Source: an uncultured virus (IMG/VR IMGVR_UViG_3300006103_000010) | Taxonomy: Duplodnaviria > Heunggongvirae > Uroviricota > Caudoviricetes | Length of the DNA: 56,578 nt | IMG/VR virus record: IMGVR_UViG_3300006103_000010 | Direction: 5' to 3' (one strand) | Shown here: in pieces, positions 1,651-19,295 of the stretch | Layout of the letters: every line of letters starts with the position of its first letter | How positions within the stretch are numbered: position 1 is the first letter of the stretch | Notes under the pieces: model-generated | What the model was told of the DNA's origin: nothing | Databases searched by the model: none | What the model saw: the letters and a program-made list of their open reading frames with translations, nothing else | Program-made: the position numbers and the translations under genes

Positions 1651-4600
1651 TGCCAATTACACCTAGGAATAATGACCCATTAAAAGATTATGTAACTCCG
1701 GGTCTTTCGCCATCTATCTCTAGCGATGGTTTAGTATACAATAAGATTTATGCTCATACTGGTGTTGTCGATACTCTACCTGCCTCTAATAATACTAGTC
1801 CTTATAATGACCCAACAACTACACTGATCAACAATAACAACTACATTCAGTTTAACCCTGCTGCTCAAACAGAATGGATATCATCTCAAGACTTTGGTGG
1901 TCCTGATAGTGCGCCAGTAACTCTGTCAATGTATGTAGTAAATGATACCTATTTTAATTCTATCTACTTTAATATTTTAAATGTTCCTTGTTATGTTGAG
2001 CTTATAACAAGCAGTGGAACACCATTGACTGATTCCTCTTCATTCATTATTGATGGTGGTTCTGATATCAACACAACTACTGATTGGGTCAGAATAAAAT
2101 ATCAAACAACCAGCGGTACAACAAATGGTTCACCAAACCCAGTGACGCTGAAAATTAATGCTGGTGATTTTATACAGATACGGATAACAAGACAAAAGAC
2201 TGTAAAGCAGCAAGGTACTATCACTAAAACCCTTATTGATTTGCCATATTCAGTTGGCGTAAAGAATTTTAGTATAAAATTAAACATCCAATATGGTTCT
2301 GATGTTCCTCCTACACCATTTTCTGTACAAAATAAATTTGGTTTTGTTGAAACATACAAAGAAAAGTTCTATAGCGCCAGCAGAGCTTTAGATAATTCTT
2401 CTAGCACATACTGGAAGAGTGAGCCACAACCAGTTGGTGATGCTATAGTCAACTACTATCTACAGGTTGCAGACGGATCAACTATTACTTCTCTAAACAG
2501 ATTGTACATTGACCCTGTATATGATGGATGTAAATTTAATCTGTACTATACTAAAGATTCTGGTCCCGATGCTTCTCAGTTTACATGGTCTCCTGTGCAA
2601 AGAGATTTCACACTACGTAATGGTTTGTATGAAATACCAACGATCCAATGTACTCATATAAAGCTAGAGTTTGTCCAACTTGCTCCGGAAATTTATGACC
2701 TGCCATTCGATAGCGTTATTAGAACAATCAATACATTCCCTTATGATATTGAAGAATACTTCTCCAATATAGAATCAACCATTATTGATGGCAAAGCAAA
2801 AAGCTATTCATTCTTTGGTTCGAACAATAATCAACAACCTATATATACCAGCACCTATTCAACCATGTTCGGTGCAGCTAATGATATAAATTCTTCATCA
2901 TGGCCTCTGGTTGGTCCATCTGGCAACAATGTACAGACTCCTAGTGCTCTAACACAGATTGTTGACCCAACCATAAGCTACAAACTTATCGATCAAAATG
3001 GTTCTTACAACAATAATAGTTATACTCAGTTCTTGCAAAGAAGATTCCCATACACTGGTAAACATGATTACTCGCAGATTACTATAGATCACTCATGGCA
3101 TCAGGCGTATTTCGTTGGTCTGTATTCTATTTCAGCATTCTATGAGACAACATCATATGACAATATACAACCAACTCTAAGTAGCTTGACTTCAAGATCT
3201 AATAATAATACTTTTGTTGGTCAAGATAATAATAATTACATTATATTAAATCCTGATGATACTGCTACAACACCATGGATGAATACCATGGACACATTTA
3301 CTGGCTTTAGCATAGCTGGGCTTACAACAGATTGGCAGAGTTTTCTCACTGATGATCAGGTATTAATGAATGATACCAGCAACTTAACAGGCGGCAGAAT
3401 ACACTTCCCATTGCAAACCATATCAAACTTAGGTACTAGCAAAATCGTCAGTGTAGTTCCTACTGCTACTGGATATTGTTATGTTCAGACTGGCAGTTAC
3501 CCAATTAGCACAAATATTGCTAATTATCTTGATGCCAACTTCTTGAATGGGACCAGTTCATGGACTGCTCTAGACAGTACAACAATTAGCAACACCACTG
3601 TAACATGGGCATCCGGTGTAGCCAGTGGTATATCAGTTAGTGGTGGTCAGTACTCAGCAGCATATAACTTTTCTCTGCCTGGTGTATATAATCCTAATGG
3701 TATAGTTGCCTGGAATGATCAATTCGGATCCAATCCATACGGTGCCGTAGGATTTGGATCTTATGCTGTATTAAGTGGCTCAGTGCAAAATAATAATCCT
3801 TATTATTTTTTAACTAATATCCAGGTACCTAATACCGGGGGTGTACCCAGTGTTAATGCAAATCTCACCATGTATACCCAGTTCATCAATCCTTCTAATG
3901 GTTTGCCAATAGCTGGTACTACTGTTACAGGTAGTAATATCTCTATAGTTGCTGGATCAGGTAGCAGCATTGTCACGGCAACTGGTGGTATGTGGTTATC
4001 CACACTGCCGAGCAACACGGTGCAGATGGTCATCAGTGGTTCAGGGTCATCCTTTAACCTGTTCGAAATGAGCATTAACCCTACACCAGTGACCAGTTGG
4101 GTAGGCCCATCTGACAGAAAAAACATGCGGGTCAGTGCTGTTGCTAGAGTATTTTTACCCAGTTCCAGCAATGGCATCTATCGTGTTAGTCTGATGGGTA
4201 CTGACTACGTTGGTAACGTTTATGAGATCGCTTATAAGCAGTTCAAAAATAATTCATTACCAATAAGTACTTGGATCAACATTGAGGTGCCTGGATATTC
4301 AGGAAACAATTACAAGTCATTCTATGCACAGATATCCCAACTTGATAACACTGTGATGGAAACCTTTTATTTGAGTATGCTATCACCGTTTTACCACCCA
4401 GTACGGTATGAATACATCACTCAAAGCGGTAGTACTAAATGGCAGCCAGTAATTGCTGGTCTGAACAATTCAAATTCTGTAGTAAACGTTGCTAATCCAG
4501 GAACAGCAGCTAGCGGTATACAAGTGCGTATGACATCGCTGGATCTAGGTGTTGTTGTAAACGCACTCAGCATTGTGCCAAGATACATCGGCAACCCTTA

Positions 4601-13065: not shown

Positions 13066-14064
13066 ATGAAAAAAGCTTTGGTACTTGGTGCCGGTGGATT
13101 CATTGGCAGTCATATGGTTACTCGCTTAAAGAGCGAGGGATACTGGGTGCGTGGTGTCGATATAAAATACCCAGAGTTTAGCAGTACAACAGCTGATGAC
13201 TTTAGGATCGGTGACCTGACTGATCCTCGTGTGGTGAATATCGTAACGCAACATGAAGGTGACACGTTTGATGAGATATACCAGTTTGCTGCTGATATGG
13301 GTGGAGCTGGTTACATCTTTAGTGGTGAACATGATGCTGATGTTATGCATAATTCAGCTACAATAAATCTTAATGTTGTCAATCGTGTCAGAGAAATCAA
13401 TGAGTTCACTGGCAAGCACAAGACTACAATTTTTTACAGTAGCAGCGCATGCATTTACCCTGAGTATAATCAGCTAGACCCTGATAACCCTAACTGCAGC
13501 GAGGACAGTGCCTATCCAGCAGCACCAGACAGTGAGTACGGTTGGGAGAAGCTGTTCAGTGAGCGATTGTATTTATCATACCATCGCAATTATGGCATCC
13601 CTGTTCGTATCGCAAGGTTCCATAATATCTTTGGTGTGGAAGGAACTTGGCATGGTGGCAAAGAGAAAGCACCTGCTGCTATGTGCCGTAAAGTAGCAGA
13701 AGCTAATGATGGTGACACAATTGAAATCTGGGGCGATGGTAAGCAAACAAGAAGTTTTCTTTATATCGATGAATGTATTGAAGCAGTTCGCAGGCTGATT
13801 ATGAGTGACTTTACTGGTCCGGTTAACATCGGCAGTGAAGAGATGGTAACGATTAATCAGCTTGTTGAAGTTGTTGCTAAGGTAGCTGGGAAAACAATTA
13901 ACATCAATCACATTGATGGGCCTCTTGGGGTGCGTGGTCGCAATAGCGACAACACACTGATCAAAGAAAAGCTTGATTGGACATATACCATGTCACTCGA
14001 AGAAGGTTTGCGTAGAACCTATGAATGGATTAACAAGCAGGTGCACCATGGTACACAAGACTGA
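13066..14064 (+). CDS. GDP-mannose 3,5-epimerase-like NAD-dependent epimerase
   Basis: GAGGFIG, AADMGGAG, SSACIYP, YGWEK, EKAPAAMCRK, GVRGRNSDN. Confidence 0.88.
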   Translation: MKKALVLGAGGFIGSHMVTRLKSEGYWVRGVDIKYPEFSSTTADDFRIGDLTDPRVVNIVTQHEGDTFDEIYQFAADMGGAGYIFSGEHDADVMHNSATINLNVVNRVREINEFTGKHKTTIFYSSSACIYPEYNQLDPDNPNCSEDSAYPAAPDSEYGWEKLFSERLYLSYHRNYGIPVRIARFHNIFGVEGTWHGGKEKAPAAMCRKVAEANDGDTIEIWGDGKQTRSFLYIDECIEAVRRLIMSDFTGPVNIGSEEMVTINQLVEVVAKVAGKTININHIDGPLGVRGRNSDNTLIKEKLDWTYTMSLEEGLRRTYEWINKQVHHGTQD

Positions 14065-14365
14065 AGTAGACACAGACAGCGAAGGCGTCAAGCACTGCCT
14101 GAACTGCAGGCGACAGGCATTCCGTATTCACTTTGACTGGTACTGCACCTGTCAAGAGCAGCGAGATGCCAGGATGGACTTTGAGCAGTGGTTGAACTAT
14201 GGCGTGGAGAACGGCTACTGTAGTGAGCAGTTCTGCAACACACACGATGGGTACCCTGTGCATCCCACTGAAGAGCAGGCCTGGGATAGAGGTGACGATC
14301 CTTGCATGCATCTGGTAAGGTTGGGTAGCATGGATGATTGGGAGTACGATTACATGCCCCTGTAA
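14048..14365 (+). CDS. Cys/His-rich hypothetical protein
   Basis: ATG overlaps the end of the epimerase; CxxC and C..CxTHDG clusters. Confidence 0.6.
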   Translation: MVHKTEVDTDSEGVKHCLNCRRQAFRIHFDWYCTCQEQRDARMDFEQWLNYGVENGYCSEQFCNTHDGYPVHPTEEQAWDRGDDPCMHLVRLGSMDDWEYDYMPL

Positions 14366-14381
14366 CTCAGTTGGTAGAGTG
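14356..14381 (+). pseudogene. Orphan 5' tRNA fragment (acceptor strand plus D arm)
   Basis: GCCCCTG-TA-ACTC-AGTTGGTA-GAGT-G, then the tRNA pattern stops abruptly. Confidence 0.75.
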
Positions 14382-14422
14382 ATTTAATTCATACTTGTAC
14401 TTGCACTAGTAGCCACAGGAGA

Positions 14423-14908
14423 GTGGCTATGACTACTAGAACATCAGAGCAAGTAATATGCAGTAGAACTGACTGTAGCAATGTATATAAAAGATATGCC
14501 TATCAAGTAAAAAAGAATATAGGATTATACTGTTCTCAAAGCTGCGCAGCTAGAGCACAGCATTCAGTTAGGTACTCCAGTTATGTACCATCACCAAAAC
14601 CATGTTTATACTGTGGTGCCTACAAAGGTGATAACAATAAAAATGCATATTGTAGAAATTGTTTTAATATAAAATCTGCTACTAGAAAATTTGGTTTGAC
14701 TATTGCTGATTACTACAGTATGCTAGAGGGTCAAAACCATCGCTGTGGAATATGCAAGATCGATAGGTGCTCTACTGGTAAAAACTTTTGTGTTGATCAC
14801 GATCACAAAACTGGTAGCGTTAGAGGGTTACTGTGCTATAGTTGCAACATCAGACTAGGATGGTATGAAAAAAAGAAAGAATCAATAGAAGAATATTTAA
14901 CCTCCTGA
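14423..14908 (+). CDS. Endonuclease VII-family HNH (homing-type) nuclease
   Basis: FGLT..Y..M...Q..RCGIC..VDHDHKTGSVRGLLCYSCN; N-terminal zinc fingers; AT-rich. Confidence 0.9.
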   Translation: MAMTTRTSEQVICSRTDCSNVYKRYAYQVKKNIGLYCSQSCAARAQHSVRYSSYVPSPKPCLYCGAYKGDNNKNAYCRNCFNIKSATRKFGLTIADYYSMLEGQNHRCGICKIDRCSTGKNFCVDHDHKTGSVRGLLCYSCNIRLGWYEKKKESIEEYLTS

Positions 14909-14971
14909 AACATTAAAGTGATGTACGGGACTTTTAATCCTGAAAAGAGGGGGCGGTACCCTCCAGGAGGA
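14901..14971 (+). tRNA. Non-canonical tRNA-Lys(UUU)
   Basis: Complete cloverleaf: CCTCCTG/CAGGAGG, ACAT/ATGT, CGGGA-CTTTTAA-TCCTG, GAGGG-GGCGGTA-CCCTC. T loop lacks TTC. Confidence 0.7.
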
Positions 14972-14981
14972 CAACAGTATA

Positions 14982-15055
14982 CGGAATGTAGCTCAGCTTG
15001 GTAGAGCGCTGCGTTTGGGACGCAGATGTCGCAGGTTCGAATCCTGTCATTCCGA
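14982..15055 (+). tRNA. tRNA-Pro(UGG)
   Basis: CGGAATG/CATTCCG; CTGCG-TTTGGGA-CGCAG; TTCGAAT T loop. Confidence 0.95.
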
Positions 15056-15066
15056 CGCAGTAGAAT

Positions 15067-15148
15067 GGGTCAGTGTCCGAGCGGCCAAAGGAAGCGGTCT
15101 GTAAAACCGCCGCGTAAAGCTACGTAGGTTCGAATCCTACCTGGCCCA
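15067..15148 (+). tRNA. tRNA-Tyr(GUA)
   Basis: GCGGT-CTGTAAA-ACCGC, long variable arm, GTAGG-TTCGAAT-CCTAC. Confidence 0.95.
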
Positions 15149-15153
15149 CAGAA

Positions 15154-15227
15154 GCCCTAGTATCCCAACAGGCAGAGGAGGAGGACTTAAAATCCTTGTA
15201 GTGTGGGTTCGAATCCCACCTGGGGCA
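15154..15227 (+). tRNA. tRNA-Leu(UAA) with short variable loop
   Basis: GAGGA-CTTAAAA-TCCTT, 5-nt variable region, GTGGG-TTCGAAT-CCCAC. Confidence 0.9.
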
Positions 15228-15231
15228 CAGA

Positions 15232-15466
15232 GCCCTGATGGCGGAATAGGCAGACGCGCCAGGTTTGATATGCCCCCGTGGTGAAATAGGTAAACACGTT
15301 ACCCTTAGGAGGTAATGACCGTAAGGTCTTGTCAGTTCGAGTCTGACCGGGGGCACAATATAAAACAATGTAAACAATGTAAAAGTGTATACATTGAAAA
15401 CAGCAGCACACAAGAAAAAATAATGGTATACTCCGCGGGGTGAAGGTTCAAGTCCCCCTCAGGGTA
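15232..15466 (+). pseudogene. Split Leu-type tRNA (5' half about 15232-15268, 3' half about 15424-15466)
   Basis: 5' GCCCTGA pairs with TCAGGGT at 15459-15465; Leu-type D arm; 3' half has a variable arm and a TTCAAGT loop. Confidence 0.65.
15272..15355 (+). tRNA. tRNA-Leu(UAG)
   Basis: GCCCCCG/CGGGGGC; TTACC-CTTAGGA-GGTAA; long variable arm. Confidence 0.93.
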
Positions 15467-15477
15467 CGGAGGTAACA

Positions 15478-15717
15478 ATGACAACTAAAGATATACGATG
15501 GGCAGCAAGGATCATCCTGGAACTGGCCAAGGTACCGGTACAGCCCAAGCTGATCGATGCATTCGTAAACTATGACGCTAACAAGATGTGGGTGAAGAGT
15601 GTGTTGAAGACAGCAGCACCGGCTGCTAGTGTGATGAGCAACCCGTACTACTACGAGGCAATCGAGATCTTGCGGCAGAACGGGATCAGCGATAACATCT
15701 ACGACACAGGGAGTTAG
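15478..15717 (+). CDS. Hypothetical protein
   Basis: GGAGG SD; 79 aa. Confidence 0.7.
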   Translation: MTTKDIRWAARIILELAKVPVQPKLIDAFVNYDANKMWVKSVLKTAAPAASVMSNPYYYEAIEILRQNGISDNIYDTGS

Positions 15718-15719
15718 CC

Positions 15720-15896
15720 ATGCATCACGAGACCTGGTGGAGCATTCTCACCGATCCCAATCATCTGATTGCGGAAAGCATTGTGAGTGTGATAGAAGAG
15801 ATCATTGTGTTCACACTGGGTTACTACCTGGGTCGTAAACGGATCTGGCAGAAGATTCACAAGCAGTTCGACAAGGAGCATGACATCACCCACTAG
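15720..15896 (+). CDS. Small membrane protein (58 aa, not in ORF track)
   Basis: MHHETWWSILTDPNHLIAESIVSVIEEIIVFTLGYYLGRKRIW..; GGAG SD. Confidence 0.65.
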   Translation: MHHETWWSILTDPNHLIAESIVSVIEEIIVFTLGYYLGRKRIWQKIHKQFDKEHDITH

Positions 15897-15901
15897 AATA
15901 T

Positions 15902-15974
15902 GCCCCTGTAGCTCAATGGATAGAGCAAGTGGTTTCTACCCACTAGGTTGCGCGTTCGATTCGTGCCAGGGGTA
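15902..15974 (+). tRNA. tRNA-Arg(UCU)
   Basis: AGTGG-TTTCTAC-CCACT; GCCCCTG/CAGGGGT. Confidence 0.92.
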
Positions 15975-15979
15975 CACCC

Positions 15980-16056
15980 GCCGAGATAGCTCAGTTGGTC
16001 AGAGTGCTTTACTTGTAATAAAGATGTCGTGGGTTCGAATCCCACTCTCGGCTCCA
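15980..16056 (+). tRNA. tRNA-Thr(UGU)
   Basis: CTTTA-CTTGTAA-TAAAG; GCCGAGA/TCTCGGC; encoded CCA. Confidence 0.95.
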
Positions 16057-16733
16057 TGGAAAATACAATCAAAGTACATAACGATGGGTTCGTCACACTG
16101 TTAGACAGCAGTGCCAGTGACCTGGACGTGGTTAACGCTGCACGCGTGTCTTTCCATACCAGCCATGAACAGATGGAACCTGGCGATGACAAACTGATCG
16201 GTTACCTTATGCGTAACCGGCATGGTTCACCATTCGAACACACCTACTTCAAGTTCTGTGTTCGTCTGCCAATCTTTGTGGCCAGGGAATGGATCCGTCA
16301 TCGCATTGGCAACTCATTCAATGAGGTGAGCGGTCGTTACACCGAGATCGACATGGGCTACTATGTTCCTGACCGTGATCACATCCGCAAGCGTGTTGGC
16401 AAGCCAGGAGCCTACGAGTACGAAGTCATGAATGAACCTGCTATCGCAGGGCTGATTGACTCAGCGTCAAGCAGTGCATTCCAGGGCTACAAAACTCTGC
16501 TAGCATGTGGGGTAGCACCAGAGCTGGCACGCATTGTACTGCCAGTGAACGCATACACTGAATGGATCTGGACAGTGAACGCCAGGTCATTGATGGCGTT
16601 CTTGAGCCTTAGAGCAGAGCGGCATGCACAACAGGAGATTCAGGACTATGCTCGTGCTGTCGAAGAGTTTTTCAAACAAGCCATGCCGGTAACATACGAG
16701 GCATGGAACGAGAATGGTAGGGTCGCACCATGA
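16056..16733 (+). CDS. thyX: Flavin-dependent thymidylate synthase
   Basis: HGSPFEH, REWIRHRIGNSFNEVSGRY, ELARIVLP, HAQQEI. Confidence 0.97.
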   Translation: MENTIKVHNDGFVTLLDSSASDLDVVNAARVSFHTSHEQMEPGDDKLIGYLMRNRHGSPFEHTYFKFCVRLPIFVAREWIRHRIGNSFNEVSGRYTEIDMGYYVPDRDHIRKRVGKPGAYEYEVMNEPAIAGLIDSASSSAFQGYKTLLACGVAPELARIVLPVNAYTEWIWTVNARSLMAFLSLRAERHAQQEIQDYARAVEEFFKQAMPVTYEAWNENGRVAP

Positions 16734-16954
16734 ACAACTATGCACCATACGAACTGGTAATGAAGCACTCACCAATGATCCAGGCACAAGGCGCTGGCAC
16801 TAGCGTTAGCCTGTGCCGTGGTTGCGCAGGGCCAAACGGCGTGTACAATATCTCATGGCCATGCGATGCAGTGCAGATCTGGGGCCTGCTCACAGAGATC
16901 CCACTAGAGTTTGACACTGATGCAGAACGTGGTAAGATCACGTACGTCAACTAA
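16730..16954 (+). CDS. Hypothetical protein (CxxC..WPC)
   Basis: ATGA overlap with thyX. Confidence 0.65.
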   Translation: MNNYAPYELVMKHSPMIQAQGAGTSVSLCRGCAGPNGVYNISWPCDAVQIWGLLTEIPLEFDTDAERGKITYVN

Positions 16955-16969
16955 AAGAAAGGCAAACAA

Positions 16970-17128
16970 ATGACATTAAAAGCTGGTGATTACGTAGCAA
17001 TCGAAATTGGAAAGATTATTGGCTTTACTTCTGATGGTAAAGCAGTAGTAGAGTTTTCATCATTCCCAGATGATTTACAGGCTTATGACACAGAAGATTT
17101 GTATCTCTTTTCTCCACCTGAAGAGTAG
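16970..17128 (+). CDS. Small hypothetical protein (52 aa, not in ORF track)
   Basis: AAAGG SD; MTLKAGDYVAIEIGKIIGFTSDGKAVVEF.. Confidence 0.6.
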   Translation: MTLKAGDYVAIEIGKIIGFTSDGKAVVEFSSFPDDLQAYDTEDLYLFSPPEE

Positions 17129-17137
17129 CAATTTTTA

Positions 17138-17211
17138 GGACATTTAGCTCAGTTGGTTAGAGCATCTGGCTTACATCCAGAGGGTCGGGGGTTCGAGTCC
17201 CTCAATGTCCA
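17138..17211 (+). tRNA. tRNA-Val(UAC), intact copy
   Basis: GGACATT/AATGTCC; TCTGG-CTTACAT-CCAGA. Confidence 0.95.
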
Positions 17212-17232
17212 CTCCAAGTAAGAAAGGAAAAC

Positions 17233-17337
17233 ATGGAAATTAAACTCAGCGTCAGTATAGGAGCAACTCTCCAGGTCAACAATGCCAAAGGAGAGTGGGA
17301 CTGGATTAAGCCGGTCATTCTGCGTCCGAAAAAGTGA
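17233..17337 (+). pseudogene. Truncated paralog of the 19688-19990 gene
   Basis: MEIKLSVSIGATLQVNNAKGEWDWIKP versus MELKLNVSIGATLQVRNSKGEWDWIKP; ends after 34 aa. Confidence 0.85.
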
Positions 17338-18602
17338 GCTCCACCGAACCGCGCATTAGCGTCTTCACGCCGAGCCACCGTCCAACGTTCCTGAATGAAT
17401 GTTTTGACAGCCTCGTAGCTCAGACCTTCTCCGATTGGGAGTGGGTTGTTGTGATGAACAATGGAGCCAACTGGCGTCCGCCGGTTGCTGATCCTCGGGT
17501 TCGAGTGTTGCAGAACAACGATCTGCATGGTGTTGGAGCGGCAAAGCGTTATGCCTGCGAGCAAGCTCGAGGTGAGTTCTTGTTGGAACTCGACCACGAC
17601 GACTTGCTGGCTCGAGAAGCCTTGGCTGAAGTGGTCGCTGCGTTTGATGCCAATCCATCGGTTGGTTTCGTCTTCAGTCAGTTCGCACAGATTAATGAAG
17701 ATGGTTCACGAAACGATCAGCGTTTCAACCCGGCCCACGGTTGGGAGTACACCGAAGTCGAGGTGAACGGCCAATCAGTGTTGCAGTGCAACTCAATGTT
17801 GCCCTACCCGCAGAACGTCTCCTACATCTGGTACGCACCGAACCACCTCCGAGCCTTTCGCAAGACCACCTACGACGCTGCTGGTGGGTACAACCCTGAG
17901 CTGACGGTGCTCGATGACCAAGACCTGATGTGCCGGCTGTTCCAGCACACGGCGTTCCACCTCATCGACCAGTGCCTCTACCTCCAGCGGGTCCACTCGA
18001 GGAATACTCAATCCGATCCAATGATCAACCAGGCGATCCAAACCGACACGGTTGCCCTGTATGACTCCTACGTCGAAGGCAATGCGCTGGCGTGGGCGAA
18101 GCGTGAGGGCCTGCTTGCCCTCGACCTCGGTGCGGCCCACAACAAGCACCCCCAATACTTAGGGGTTGACCAGTACGAGCGTCCAGGCGTGGACATTGTT
18201 GCCGACGTCACGAAGGGCTTGGATCTTCCTGACAATTCAGTTGGTGTCATTCGGGCTAAGGACTTCCTCGAGCACATTCCCGACAAGGTGACCTTGTTCA
18301 ATGAACTCTACCGAGTGCTTGCCCATGGTGGATTGCTGTTGTCGCTCACTCCGAGCAGTGACGGTAGGGGAGCGTTCCAAGACCCAACTCATGTGGCCTA
18401 CTACAACGAGAATTCGTTCTGGTACTTCACGGATCGCAACTACGCCAACTTCGTGCCGCAGATTCAGACTCGGTTCCAAGTGAGTCGCCTCGTGACTTTC
18501 TTTCCGAACGACTGGCATCAGCAGCACAATATTTCCTACGTGAATGCGAACCTGATTGCCATCAAGGATGGACCTCGCCAGGGTGGCATTCTGTCGATTT
18601 AA
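17334..18602 (+). CDS. GT2 glycosyltransferase fused to a SAM methyltransferase domain
   Basis: ISVFTP..QTFSDWEWVVV..LELDHDD; C-terminal LDLGAA..DFLEHI..ELYRVL..AFQDPTH. Confidence 0.9.
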   Translation: MSSTEPRISVFTPSHRPTFLNECFDSLVAQTFSDWEWVVVMNNGANWRPPVADPRVRVLQNNDLHGVGAAKRYACEQARGEFLLELDHDDLLAREALAEVVAAFDANPSVGFVFSQFAQINEDGSRNDQRFNPAHGWEYTEVEVNGQSVLQCNSMLPYPQNVSYIWYAPNHLRAFRKTTYDAAGGYNPELTVLDDQDLMCRLFQHTAFHLIDQCLYLQRVHSRNTQSDPMINQAIQTDTVALYDSYVEGNALAWAKREGLLALDLGAAHNKHPQYLGVDQYERPGVDIVADVTKGLDLPDNSVGVIRAKDFLEHIPDKVTLFNELYRVLAHGGLLLSLTPSSDGRGAFQDPTHVAYYNENSFWYFTDRNYANFVPQIQTRFQVSRLVTFFPNDWHQQHNISYVNANLIAIKDGPRQGGILSI

Positions 18603-18676
18603 CGGCTTCATCAAACAAGGCCGTGGAAATCCTTAAGGTCAATGGCATAGTGGTCAATCTCTACTCTTACTAAAAG

Positions 18677-18705
18677 TTGCACTCGAACAAGGTAACCACT
18701 ATACT
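18677..18705 (+). promoter_or_regulatory. Sigma70-type promoter
   Basis: TTGCAC-17 bp-TATACT just upstream of the second tRNA-Val copy. Confidence 0.7.
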
Positions 18706-18715
18706 AGAACTATAG

Positions 18716-18789
18716 GCCTTGGTAGCTCAGTTGGTTAGAGCATCTGGCTTACATCCAGAGGGTCGGGGGTTCGAGTCCCTCAATGTCCA
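18716..18789 (+). pseudogene. Chimeric tRNA-Val(UAC) with unpaired acceptor stem
   Basis: 5' strand GCCTTGG cannot form a stem with 3' AATGTCC; remainder matches the 17138 copy. Confidence 0.8.
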
Positions 18790-18810
18790 CTACAAGTAAA
18801 AAGGATTAGT

Positions 18811-19200
18811 ATGGAACGTGTTCAGTTAGAAAACTCTGATGTCTACTTGATGGTTCATGACAGCGATCAGTGCAATGGGCAACAGTGCACCATTCACAAC
18901 ATATCTGATCATTCCATGCGGTCTTTTCCACAGCACTGGAGAACTGACCGTGGTATCATGGAACGCATCTGCACTCATGGTATTGGTCATCCTGATCCAG
19001 ATGAGTACAGGATCACAGAGCTCAAAGAGACCAGCGTGCACGGTTGCGATGGGTGCTGTGGTAGTGTAGAGTGGGACAAGGAGCAGTACAACCCACTCGC
19101 AGTATTTATGGACTGTCCACAGTGTGGTTCAGACCTCAAGCCAGAGCATGCTCACTACAAGTGTGGTGGATGTGGTTGGCGGGACAGCTGCTGCGACTAA
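18811..19200 (+). CDS. Cys/His-rich protein (ERICxHGxGHPDPD) with C-terminal zinc ribbon
   Basis: Motif plus CPQCG..CGGCG; shares motifs with 32987-33280. Confidence 0.7.
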   Translation: MERVQLENSDVYLMVHDSDQCNGQQCTIHNISDHSMRSFPQHWRTDRGIMERICTHGIGHPDPDEYRITELKETSVHGCDGCCGSVEWDKEQYNPLAVFMDCPQCGSDLKPEHAHYKCGGCGWRDSCCD

Positions 19201-19205
19201 AGTCT

Positions 19206-19295
19206 GGAAGCATGCCTGAGTGGCCGAATGGGACGGTTTGCTAAACCGTTGAGTGTGCAAGCGCTCCGTGGGTTCGAATCCCACTGCTTCCGCCA
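19206..19295 (+). tRNA. tRNA-Ser(GCU)
   Basis: GGAAGCA/TGCTTCC, ACGGT-TTGCTAA-ACCGT, long variable arm, GCCA end. Confidence 0.95.

What the first reader, a model, noticed from the sequence alone, without database searches (positions are those of the whole stretch)
14356..14974. Homing nuclease sits between a broken tRNA and its own recoded tRNA-Lys
Seen: a canonical tRNA 5' fragment stops after the D arm; an AT-rich Endo VII gene follows; overlapping its stop codon is a fully paired tRNA-Lys(UUU) cloverleaf with atypical loops (T loop GGCGGTA, D loop TAAAGTG). Inference: a mobile nuclease-plus-tRNA cassette that invades a tRNA gene and supplies a sequence-divergent, cleavage-resistant replacement. 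The odd tRNA might also evade host tRNA-Lys nucleases such as PrrC.
Basis: partly seen in the sequence, partly recalled or inferred. Interest (0 to 1): 0.72.

Follow-up and report, generated by a model that had tools for sequence, protein, structure and literature searches.

The report
Homing nuclease fused to odd tRNA-Lys
A selfish DNA-cutting enzyme gene has lodged at the head of a freshwater phage's tRNA gene array, and its coding sequence runs straight into a complete but strangely shaped lysine tRNA that stands where relatives keep a normal one.

Summary
14356-14381 is a dead 5' tRNA stub. 14429-14908 is a low-GC Endo VII/HNH gene. 14901-14971 is a fully paired tRNA-Lys(UUU) cloverleaf with non-canonical D and T loops; it overlaps the nuclease's stop codon.

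All three full-length relatives of this nuclease found in IMG/VR (35-54% identity) also sit in phage tRNA arrays, and each ORF ends inside the next tRNA. In one relative (L071) the cassette, made of the nuclease plus an odd tRNA-Lys, splits a canonical tRNA-Lys gene and both halves remain. In another (L070) a tRNA-Pro stub precedes the nuclease and a complete tRNA-Pro follows it.

The odd tRNA-Lys is a small conserved family of three lineages. They share T loop GGCRGNA and a D loop without GG, and 9 of 21 stem pairs covary.

- The window's stub matches tRNA-Thr(UGU), not Lys.
- Nuclease-abutting tRNA-Pro and tRNA-Asp have normal T loops.
- One carrier phage keeps a canonical tRNA-Lys.

"Recoded for cleavage resistance" is therefore untested and weakened. 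No empty allele close to the window and no RNA data were found.

Verdict: a real and unusual mobile cassette, and a new variant of tRNA-cluster homing endonucleases.

The parts
14048..14365 (+). Upstream ORF (105 aa, no Pfam or PHROG family). Its last three codons and its stop codon TAA (14363-14365) lie inside the tRNA stub.
   Evidence: Homologs in 15 IMG/VR loci and in L070. Homology to relatives ends at about 14344, 12 nt before the stub.
14356..14381 (+). Dead 5' stub of a tRNA gene: acceptor 5' strand, D arm and nt 26. Most likely tRNA-Thr(UGU); Lys is not excluded.
   Evidence: The exact 25-mer starts 5 of 5 intact tRNA-Thr(UGU) genes in IMG/VR. tRNA-Lys(UUU) genes with the same A10/T25 D arm are common (80 fetched) but none has the exact 25-mer. 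G26 is found in 5 of 5 of the Thr genes and in 2 of 80 of the Lys genes.
14382..14397 (+). Conserved left-end leader of the cassette (motif TAATTCATACTTG).
   Evidence: 17 of 19 identical to the sequence just after the tRNA-Pro stub in L070, and 20 of 28 to the L071 leader. A 13-mer at 14381-14393 is also present in L028 without a nuclease.
14412..14427 (+). 5-bp hairpin presenting the Shine-Dalgarno AGGAGA in its loop, just before the ATG at 14429.
   Evidence: Sequence. Pair 14413-14426 is C-G in the window, C/A in G001 and T-A in the X20 variant (both changes listed): a compensatory change.
14429..14908 (+). Endo VII-type HNH nuclease gene (159 aa from the ATG), with an N-terminal Cys-rich region and a C-terminal PF02945 domain.
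   Evidence: Invariant Cys, D123, H124, H126 and N140 across 8 homologs of 44-59% identity to it (A3).
14901..14971 (+). Non-canonical tRNA-Lys(UUU): A8, U14, D loop TAAAGTG, 4-nt variable loop, T loop GGCGGTA, discriminator A73, no encoded CCA.
14972..14981 (+). Right-end spacer CAACAGTATA before tRNA-Pro. L071 has CAAAGT at the same place after its odd tRNA.
14982..15056 (+). tRNA-Pro(UGG), canonical. It is the first ordinary member of the array and was probably co-converted with the cassette.
   Evidence: No difference in the X20 variant.
15232..15466 (+). Second event in the same array: a split tRNA (5' half 15232-15270, anticodon TGA; 3' part about 15429-15466). It encloses tRNA-Leu(UAG) at 15272-15356 and the last 31 nt (15393-15423) of a second, unrelated HNH gene that is intact in G001.
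   Evidence: PHROG 10822 HNH, E 5.7e-42 for the 149-aa ORF in L001.

Best explanation
Window 14382-14981 is a compact mobile cassette of a subfamily of Endo VII/HNH homing-type endonucleases that lives in phage tRNA gene arrays.

Anatomy (shown):
- a conserved leader;
- a hairpin holding the ribosome-binding site;
- the nuclease ORF;
- a complete tRNA gene whose first nucleotides also encode the nuclease's last residues and stop codon.

In this phage the cassette sits at the head of the array, directly behind a dead 5' stub of another tRNA gene, most likely Thr(UGU). Its tRNA is a non-canonical tRNA-Lys(UUU). That tRNA occupies the slot where nuclease-free relatives have a canonical tRNA-Lys(UUU).

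Mechanism (inferred):
- The nuclease cuts tRNA-array DNA of co-infecting relatives that lack it.
- Break repair then copies the cassette and its neighbours: the phage encodes a UvsX-like recombinase.
- The first, illegitimate landing destroyed a resident tRNA gene, and the cassette's own tRNA makes up for the loss.
- The array is transcribed as one precursor. RNase P cleavage at the tRNA's 5' end would then remove the nuclease's last two codons and its stop codon, keeping nuclease expression low, as proposed for T4 segB/tRNA-Arg.

The odd tRNA belongs to a conserved family with a rewired D-loop/T-loop elbow. It is probably still a working RNA, most likely a Lys decoder for AAA. AAA is also the nuclease gene's own preferred Lys codon.
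For: Subfamily habit:
- The window and 3 of 3 full-length relatives (L070 54%, L071 46%, L072 35% identity) have a tRNA 5' end 7-20 nt before the end of the nuclease's stop codon.
- 0 of 58 relatives that share only the C-terminal domain have a tRNA within 40 nt, and 57 of those 58 loci have no tRNA at all.

Invasion of tRNA genes:
- In L071 the cassette (2430-3040) lies between nt 41 and 45 of a canonical tRNA-Lys; the flanks are 41/41 and 29/29 identical to L059.
- L070 has a 22-nt tRNA-Pro stub, the same leader motif, the nuclease and then a complete tRNA-Pro.

Synteny: L024-26 and L028 have ORF, canonical tRNA-Lys(UUU) and tRNA-Pro with no nuclease.

Foreign origin and recent spread:
- GC is 35% against 47%.
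- In a 3%-diverged variant contig (run X20), the nuclease ORF differs at 12 of 486 sites. The upstream ORF differs at 19 of 309 and the downstream 15437-16004 at 42 of 568.
- Fisher p is 0.013 and 0.0002, or 0.029 and 0.0013 if the 2 unlisted differences fall in the nuclease.

Intact enzyme: all invariant Cys/Asp/His/Asn residues are kept.

Odd tRNA family:
- Three members: window, L071 2963-3034 (45.0 bits) and L072 3274-3345 (37.8 bits).
- 9 of 21 stem pairs vary on both sides yet stay paired, while the T loop GGCRGNA and the GG-less D loop are conserved.
- A decaying tRNA piece in the same array shows what neutral decay looks like: 2 mismatches in its T stem against 0 in G001.

No other tRNA-Lys was found in the 105-kb nearest record.

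Precedents come from PMC2330249 (abstract and discussion read). SegB sits in the T4 tRNA cluster and recognises the T-loop motif of tRNA genes, and tRNA-Arg maturation cuts between the last codon and the stop codon of segB. [quoted passage not shown]
Against: - No nuclease-free allele close to the window was found, either in IMG/VR (nearest flanking-ORF relatives are 72% or less) or in four metagenome runs. Homing is therefore inferred, not seen.
- Cleavage specificity is unknown. The three junctions lie at different tRNA positions (nt 22, 26 and 41/45), which argues against one precise homing site.
- The window has no 3' remnant of the broken tRNA, so the stub may have travelled with the cassette rather than mark the landing site here.
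- The odd tRNA fails ARAGORN's standard model. It lacks U8, A14, G18, U54, U55 and A58, so processing, charging and ribosome use are all unproven.
- No RNA data exist.
- All copies of the window's odd tRNA are identical, so covariation rests on only three lineages.
- In L072 the odd tRNA is 267 nt from the nuclease, not fused to it, so the two elements are not an obligate unit.
Confidence: 0.6

Rival explanations
1. The stub is the old tRNA-Lys. The odd D and T loops exist because the nuclease recognises the canonical tRNA-Lys gene (or the conserved D/T-loop DNA motifs), so its companion copy had to be recoded to escape self-cleavage.
For: - L071 shows the cassette inside a canonical tRNA-Lys(UUU).
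- 3 of 4 phage lineages with this nuclease subfamily carry the odd tRNA-Lys, while 0 of 2 nuclease-free relatives' records (G005, G006, both incomplete) do.
- SegB recognises GGTTCRANTCC in tRNA genes (PMC2330249, discussion read), a motif that the odd tRNAs lack.
- tRNA-Lys(UUU) genes with the stub's A10/T25 D arm exist, one of them with the stub's acceptor GCCCCTG.
Against: - The stub's exact 25-mer is tRNA-Thr(UGU) in 5 of 5 intact genes.
- The tRNAs directly abutting the nuclease in L070 and L072 keep canonical T loops.
- L070's complete genome keeps a canonical tRNA-Lys(UUU).
- The odd loops are conserved among three diverged lineages. Mere avoidance of a DNA motif would not require that.
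Confidence: 0.2
2. The odd elbow is an RNA-level adaptation specific to tRNA-Lys(UUU). It could be a decoder (or decoy) that host or rival-phage tRNA-Lys nucleases, or elbow-reading enzymes, do not recognise. The nuclease is merely a neighbour that helps it spread.
For: - The odd elbow is found only in Lys(UUU) in three arrays whose other tRNAs are canonical.
- Phage tRNA-Lys is a proven counter-defence: T5 against PARIS (PMC11464382, passages read).
- Homing endonucleases amplify and spread anti-defence tRNAs (PMC13096335, abstract and two sections read).
Against: - Known escapes map to the anticodon stem-loop (PMC11464382), which is unremarkable here: the loop is CTTTTAA in all.
- No defence nuclease known to read the tRNA-Lys elbow was found in the papers read.
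- The host is unknown.
Confidence: 0.2
3. 14901-14971 no longer decodes. It is either a decaying tRNA-Lys gene or a tRNA-like processing signal (RNase P/Z site) that only shapes the 3' end of the nuclease mRNA.
For: - The universal tertiary nucleotides are lost.
- ARAGORN's standard mode misses it.
- Its Rfam score of 37.3 is the lowest in the array; the others score 49-74.
- The ORF/tRNA overlap resembles the segB/tRNA-Arg control proposed in PMC2330249.
Against: - 21 of 21 pairs are intact, and 7-8 pairs are changed on both sides relative to canonical orthologs.
- The odd loops are conserved in three lineages.
- The anticodon loop and A73 are intact.
- It is the only tRNA-Lys(UUU) match found in G004 (complete record) and the only tRNA-Lys found in G001.
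Confidence: 0.15
4. The region is a tRNA gene interrupted by a self-splicing group I intron that carries the nuclease.
For: Bacterial tRNA genes do host group I introns, and the stub is a tRNA 5' part.
Against: - No intron family was found at E up to 10 in 14330-14985, nor at E up to 0.01 in L070-72.
- The window has no 3' exon.
- In L071 three tRNA nucleotides are missing at the junction.
Confidence: 0.01

Closest known systems
T4 SegB (GIY-YIG homing endonuclease in the T4 tRNA cluster; PMC2330249, PMC13096335)
   Same: A free-standing nuclease gene inside a phage tRNA array. It spreads together with neighbouring tRNA genes. The ORF end meets the 5' end of the next tRNA, so tRNA maturation cuts the mRNA at the stop codon. 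There is a hairpin at the translation start.
   Different: SegB belongs to a different nuclease superfamily (GIY-YIG, not HNH/Endo VII). It lies between intact canonical tRNAs. No tRNA stub or non-canonical companion tRNA is described in the parts I read.
T5 F-TflI/II/IV endonucleases (cited in PMC2330249, reference 18; the original paper was not seen)
   Same: Endonuclease ORFs located in a phage tRNA gene cluster, as PMC2330249 states. That they are HNH enzymes is recalled, not from the passages read.
   Different: Any relation to PF02945 was not tested. Their sequences were not compared here.
Recombination endonuclease VII family (Pfam PF02945; T4 gp49 type)
   Same: The C-terminal domain matches the family above its cut-off, with conserved Cys, Asp, His and Asn positions.
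   Different: T4 gp49 is a junction resolvase (recalled). This protein has an extra N-terminal Cys-rich region. Its sporadic, low-GC, tRNA-embedded distribution is that of a selfish nuclease.
Integrative elements that insert into tRNA genes and carry a replacement tRNA end (textbook knowledge, recalled)
   Same: A mobile element lands in a tRNA gene and supplies sequence that keeps a working tRNA, leaving a dead partial copy.
   Different: Those use integrases and att sites and restore the 3' end of the same tRNA. Here a nuclease cassette brings a whole, structurally different tRNA and leaves a 5' stub.
Phage tRNA-Lys as counter-defence (T5 against PARIS; PMC11464382)
   Same: A phage-encoded tRNA-Lys(UUU) that differs from the standard form.
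   Different: T5's changes are in the anticodon stem-loop. Here that part is ordinary and the D/T-loop elbow is changed.
Metazoan mitochondrial tRNAs
   Same: A cloverleaf with non-canonical D and T loops, recognised only by ARAGORN's mitochondrial mode.
   Different: This one is in a bacteriophage, has normal arm lengths and is GC-rich. Its particular loop sequences are conserved across three phage lineages.

Membership tests
Pfam PF02945 Endonuclease_7 (HNH / His-Me finger) | Profile score above the curated cut-off | tested here: met
   68.2 bits against a cut-off of 23.6, E 5.9e-19, residues 87-159. Four PHROGs named 'endonuclease VII' at E below 1e-12.
Pfam PF02945 Endonuclease_7 (HNH / His-Me finger) | Metal-binding and catalytic Cys/Asp/His/Asn positions kept | tested here: met
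   C106, C109, D123, H124, H126, C136, C139 and N140 are invariant in 8 homologs. The assignment of roles is recalled, not tested.
Free-standing homing endonuclease gene | Sporadic presence among related genomes at a conserved position | tested here: met
   Present in the window's species, L070 and L071. Absent from L024-26 and L028, which share the upstream ORF and the tRNA-Lys/Pro order.
Free-standing homing endonuclease gene | Signs of recent lateral spread relative to flanks | tested here: met
   GC 35% against 47%. Divergence is 2.5% in the gene against 6.1% and 7.4% in the flanks in the X20 variant. This rests on one variant contig only.
Free-standing homing endonuclease gene | Site-specific cleavage of the nuclease-free allele and preferential inheritance | not testable with these tools
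   Needs enzyme assays and phage crosses.
tRNA (Rfam RF00005) | Covariance-model score above the gathering threshold | tested here: met
   37.3 bits against 29. The filters dropped it when 5.5 kb or a whole record was searched.
tRNA (canonical bacterial type) | Conserved tertiary nucleotides U8, A14, G18-G19, U54-U55-C56, A58 | tested here: not met
   It has A8, U14, D loop TAAAGTG and T loop GGCGGTA; only C56 and possibly G19 are kept. ARAGORN's standard mode fails even at -ps70.
tRNA-Lys(UUU) | 7-nt anticodon loop with U33, anticodon UUU, A37 and discriminator A73 | tested here: met
   Loop CTTTTAA and A73. That these are the LysRS identity elements is recalled.
tRNA-Lys(UUU) | Processed, CCA-added and charged with lysine | not testable with these tools
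   No RNA holder is listed.
Group I intron in a tRNA gene | Intron ribozyme core and a 3' exon | tested here: not met
   No Rfam intron match. No 3' half in the window.
SegB-like GIY-YIG endonucleases | GIY-YIG catalytic domain | tested here: not met
   Only PF02945 (and a weak zf-FCS) was found.

The most novel reading that the evidence does not exclude
Phage tRNA arrays harbour a previously undescribed, conserved class of tRNA-Lys(UUU) with a rewired elbow: G54, G55, C56, R57 and G58 in the T loop, paired with a GG-less AAG-type D loop. On this reading it works in bacterial translation and travels fused to, or beside, a dedicated tRNA-gene-invading HNH nuclease. The selfish nuclease and its substitute tRNA would then form a unit that can destroy a resident tRNA gene without cost to the phage. 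The altered elbow would exist because conserved tRNA loop motifs are what tRNA-directed nucleases, whether DNA- or RNA-cutting, read.
Probability: 0.25. Interest if true: 0.85.

Novelty: new variant of a known kind. Interest (0 to 1): 0.74.

Why it matters
Homing endonucleases in phage tRNA clusters are known (T4 SegB, T5 F-Tfl) and have just been tied to anti-defence tRNA amplification. Three things appear to be new here:

1. An Endo VII/HNH subfamily whose ORF always ends inside a tRNA.
2. Direct sequence evidence (L071, L070, the window) that such cassettes land inside tRNA genes and bring a substitute tRNA.
3. A conserved tRNA-Lys(UUU) family that lacks nearly all universal elbow nucleotides yet keeps every helix.

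If that tRNA is charged and used, it would show that a bacterial translation system accepts a tRNA with a non-standard elbow. It would also give a natural test case for what RNase P, the CCA-adding enzyme, EF-Tu and tRNA-targeting defence nucleases really need from the elbow.

Practically, standard tRNA finders miss these genes, so phage tRNA repertoires are under-counted.

My five paper searches listed no description of such a cassette or tRNA. That is a limited search, not proof of absence.

Tried and rejected
- **Group I intron or split tRNA reading.** No intron family was found, and the window has no partner for the stub's acceptor strand.
- **[quoted passage not shown].** Rejected: G002, the complete genome holding L070, has one.
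- **Search for an empty allele.**
  - The IMG/VR flanking-ORF search gave only identical copies or relatives at 72% or less.
  - Contigs of four metagenome runs laid on 13600-16100 gave no contig joining across the nuclease.
  - The 'letters between' joints at 14380 to 16025/16026 are other tRNAs that share the D and T arms. One of them is a tRNA-Lys(UUU) with an anticodon stem one pair away from the window's. I could not retrieve it.
- **Expression.** No RNA holder is listed.
- **Promoter and terminator scan of 13900-16200.** Nothing above the shuffles, and nothing inside the array.
- **Two collection scans were wasted on mis-spaced patterns**. The corrected pattern found the window-type odd tRNA only in its own species.
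- **Genome-contig scan with the nuclease alignment.** Only 5 relatives, 4 of them partial (C-terminal domain) and the fifth covering residues 22-151 at 34% identity, all in MAGs and uninformative.
- **13-mer GATTTAATTCATA.** It occurs once in the window and in L028, and its meaning is unresolved.
Full report
**Context**

The window is part of a large freshwater phage. Its genes include a DnaB-like helicase, a primase, a DNA polymerase, a UvsX-like recombinase and ThyX. Near-identical DNA is found in freshwater metagenome runs. The window's own assembly is not held. The nearest record is G001, a 105-kb IMG/VR contig estimated 71% complete. G001 is 99-100% identical over 14048-16800, but it lacks the window's epimerase gene and has 432 extra bases at about 15390.

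From 14356 to 19295 the + strand carries a tRNA array of nine canonical tRNAs: Pro, Tyr, Leu x2, Arg, Thr, Val x2 and Ser. All but two (Tyr GUA, Ser GCU) have U at the first anticodon position and so read A-ending codons.

**Checking the observation**

All three elements are present as described.

- **The stub.** 14356-14381 is a clean tRNA 5' part: acceptor strand, nt 8-9, a 4-bp D stem with loop AGTTGGTA, and nt 26. It then breaks off.
- **The nuclease gene.** The ORF 14429-14908 (also open from the GTG at 14423) matches Pfam Endonuclease_7 at 68 bits and PHROG 'endonuclease VII' families. It has 35% GC against 47% for the window.
- **The cloverleaf.** 14901-14971 has 21 of 21 standard pairs. 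It scores 37.3 bits on Rfam tRNA (gathering 29) when a short stretch is searched. It escaped the filters in wider searches. ARAGORN's standard mode misses it even at 70% thresholds, but its metazoan-mitochondrial mode calls it Lys(ttt). The nuclease's stop codon TGA is tRNA nucleotides 6-8, so the unusual A8 is part of the stop codon.

**What the stub is**

- Its first 25 nt occur exactly in eight IMG/VR stretches. Three are the window's own species. The other five are each the start of an intact tRNA-Thr(UGU).
- A10/T25 D arms of this kind are also common in phage tRNA-Lys(UUU): 80 were fetched, one with the same acceptor strand. None has the exact 25-mer.
- Only 2 of the 80 Lys genes have G26, against 5 of 5 of the Thr genes.
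- I therefore read the stub as Thr(UGU) at roughly 2:1 over Lys.
- An intact tRNA-Thr(UGU) exists further down the array, at 15980-16056.

**Relatives without the nuclease**

The upstream ORF (14048-14365) has homologs in 15 IMG/VR loci.

- In L024-26 and L028 (56-63% identity) it is followed after 6 nt by a canonical tRNA-Lys(UUU), a 65-nt spacer and tRNA-Pro(UGG).
- The window's odd tRNA therefore sits in the slot of a normal tRNA-Lys.
- It shares acceptor nt 2-7 with L028 and L059, and most of its anticodon stem with L024.
- However, 7-8 of its 21 stem pairs are changed on both sides, and both loops differ.

**The nuclease subfamily**

A protein search gave full-length homologs at 43-60% identity. 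They share all Cys, Asp, His and Asn positions. Three full-length relatives were retrievable with their DNA, and all three lie in tRNA arrays.

- **L070 (54%).** The order is the homolog of the same upstream ORF, a 22-nt stub of tRNA-Pro, a leader 17/19 identical to window 14379-14397, the nuclease, then a complete tRNA-Pro. That tRNA-Pro has the same acceptor strand as the stub but a recoded D arm. The ORF stops in its D loop.
- **L071 (46%).** A canonical tRNA-Lys(UUU) is split. Nt 1-41 (41/41 identical to L059) lie before the cassette and nt 45-73 (29/29) after it. They are followed by the same Lys-Pro spacer as in L028. The 611-nt insert holds a homologous leader, the nuclease, and a complete odd tRNA-Lys(UUU) in whose D loop the ORF stops.
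- **L072 (35%).** The ORF stops at nt 8-10 of tRNA-Asp.

By one uniform measure, the window and 3 of 3 full-length relatives have a tRNA 5' end 7-20 nt before the end of the stop codon. Of 58 relatives that share only the nuclease domain, 0 have a tRNA within 40 nt.

This is the strongest result. The ORF/tRNA fusion and the tRNA stubs are a family trait, not an accident of this window.

**The odd tRNA family**

It lies 267 nt downstream of that phage's nuclease (Rfam 37.8 bits).

- The three share anticodon loop CTTTTAA, A26 and A73.
- Their T loops are GGCGGTA, GGCAGAA and GGCAGAA.
- Their 7-nt D loops lack GG: TAAAGTG, AGAAGTA and AGAAGAA.
- Meanwhile 9 of 21 stem pairs vary on both sides and remain paired.
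- Two positions are non-pairs in L071 and L072: 27-43 G/A, which the canonical relatives also show, and 53-61 T/T.

With standard numbering for a 7-nt D loop, the changes amount to G18 to A, U55 to G, and U54/A58 to G/G, with G19-C56 kept. That reading is my inference. Conserved odd loops beside freely covarying stems argue for a functional, specifically folded RNA rather than decay. For contrast, the dead 3' tRNA piece at 15429-15466 has already picked up two T-stem mismatches relative to G001.

The odd tRNA is the only tRNA-Lys found in G001. It is the only match to the loop pattern in L072's complete genome. That array otherwise has only Lys(CUU) within the fetched locus.

**Signs of mobility**

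Besides composition, one variant contig (run X20, 5.7 kb, depth 34) covers 14047-15158 with 37 differences.

| Region | Differences |
|---|---|
| Upstream ORF | 19 of 309 (6.1%) |
| Nuclease ORF | 12 of 486 (2.5%) |
| Stub, odd tRNA, tRNA-Pro | none listed |
| Separate piece, 15437-16004 | 42 of 568 (7.4%) |

Two of the 37 differences are not listed. Fisher tests give p = 0.013 and 0.0002, or 0.029 and 0.0013 in the worst case. A selfish gene that is less diverged than both flanks fits recent gene conversion. This rests on a single variant.

The same contig changes both sides of one pair of the hairpin at the ribosome-binding site (14413 and 14426). G001 has only one of the two changes.

**How it probably works**

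Shown: the anatomy, the family habit, and the split or stubbed tRNA genes. Everything below is inferred.

- **Cutting.** The nuclease cuts tRNA-array DNA of relatives that lack it. For comparison, T4 SegB recognises the T-loop motif GGTTCRANTCC of tRNA genes and drives near-100% inheritance of its tRNA region (PMC2330249, abstract and discussion read).
- **Repair.** Recombinational repair then copies the cassette and its neighbouring tRNAs.
- **Landings.** Landings at new places are imprecise. The junctions are at nt 22, 26 and 41/45, and in L071 the left junction lies in a run (TTTAATT) shared by the tRNA-Lys anticodon loop and the cassette leader.
- **Substitution.** The cassette's tRNA replaces the function that was destroyed.
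- **Expression.** No promoter-like or terminator-like site stands out inside the array, so co-transcription is likely. RNase P cleavage at 14900/14901 would then remove the last two codons and the stop codon of the nuclease mRNA. This self-limiting device was proposed for segB/tRNA-Arg and for the T5 F-Tfl genes (PMC2330249, discussion).
- **Codon use.** The nuclease gene uses AAA for 11 of its 14 Lys codons, against 27% in 28 phage ORFs. Its companion tRNA reads its own favourite codon. This may be coincidence arising from low GC.

**Why the elbow is odd remains open**

- *Against immunity of the DNA to the nuclease:* the Pro and Asp genes that abut the nuclease in L070 and L072 have ordinary T loops. 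L070's complete genome also keeps a canonical tRNA-Lys(UUU).
- *For a Lys-specific RNA-level reason:* only Lys(UUU) shows the odd elbow in three arrays. tRNA-Lys is a known target of defence nucleases that phage tRNAs counter (PMC11464382, passages read; PMC10264068 and PMC11555353, listing only).
- *Against that reason:* the published escapes are in the anticodon stem-loop, which is ordinary here.

**Novelty**

The five paper searches listed SegB, the T5 enzymes, HEG islands (PMC10448857, passages read) and SegB-driven tRNA amplification (PMC13096335, abstract and sections 7 and 10 read). They listed no HNH subfamily fused to tRNAs, no substitute-tRNA cassette, and no phage tRNA with this elbow. 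I rate it a new variant of a known kind, with a real chance that the tRNA family is something new in its own right.

Noticed in passing
window 15232-15466; L001 1522-1971 (minus strand): A second, unrelated HNH gene (149 aa, PHROG 10822) is intact in G001/L001/L002 but deleted in the window and L007, leaving its last 31 nt (15393-15423). Together with tRNA-Leu(UAG) it sits inside a split tRNA: the 5' half has anticodon TGA and the 3' part has the matching acceptor strand. So this one array holds two independent nuclease-plus-tRNA insertions into tRNA genes.
   Followed up: partly
window 17138-17212 and 18722-18788: An intact tRNA-Val(UAC) and an identical 3' partial copy (from nt 8 on, plus about 12 nt of shared trailer) flank a 422-aa ORF at 17334-18602 with weak methyltransferase and glycosyltransferase hits. 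This looks like a cargo insertion with duplication of the tRNA 3' part.
   Followed up: partly
window 15154-15228; L024 3532-3606: The 'tRNA-Leu(UAA)' is class-I sized, with a 5-nt variable loop instead of the long arm expected of bacterial tRNA-Leu. The same holds in relative L024. Its amino-acid identity is therefore uncertain.
   Followed up: no
window 13066-14064: The nucleotide-sugar epimerase gene just upstream has no match in the nearest record G001, and in the X20 variant contig similarity to the window also ends at 14047 although that contig continues for about 4.6 kb. This is a strain-variable boundary right next to the nuclease cassette.
   Followed up: no
L028 3405-3527: A nuclease-free relative has a 21-nt 5' tRNA stub followed by a complete tRNA-Thr(UGU) and then the 13-mer GATTTAATTCATA. 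That 13-mer forms the stub/leader junction in the window (14381-14393). It may be the scar of a lost cassette.
   Followed up: partly
window 14363-14365; L072 about 3005-3007: ORFs that run into tRNA genes stop at tRNA nt 8-10 (TAA or TAG). The upstream ORF does so in the stub, and the L072 nuclease does so in tRNA-Asp. The conserved U8-A9-R10 of tRNAs serves as a ready-made stop codon.
   Followed up: no
Read-laying table 5c (run X18), joint 14380 to 16025: A metagenome contig carries a tRNA-Lys(UUU) whose 5' part is at least 85% like the stub. Its anticodon stem (CGGGT/ACCTG) differs from the window's odd tRNA by one flipped pair. It could be related to the canonical parent, but I could not retrieve it.
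   Followed up: no
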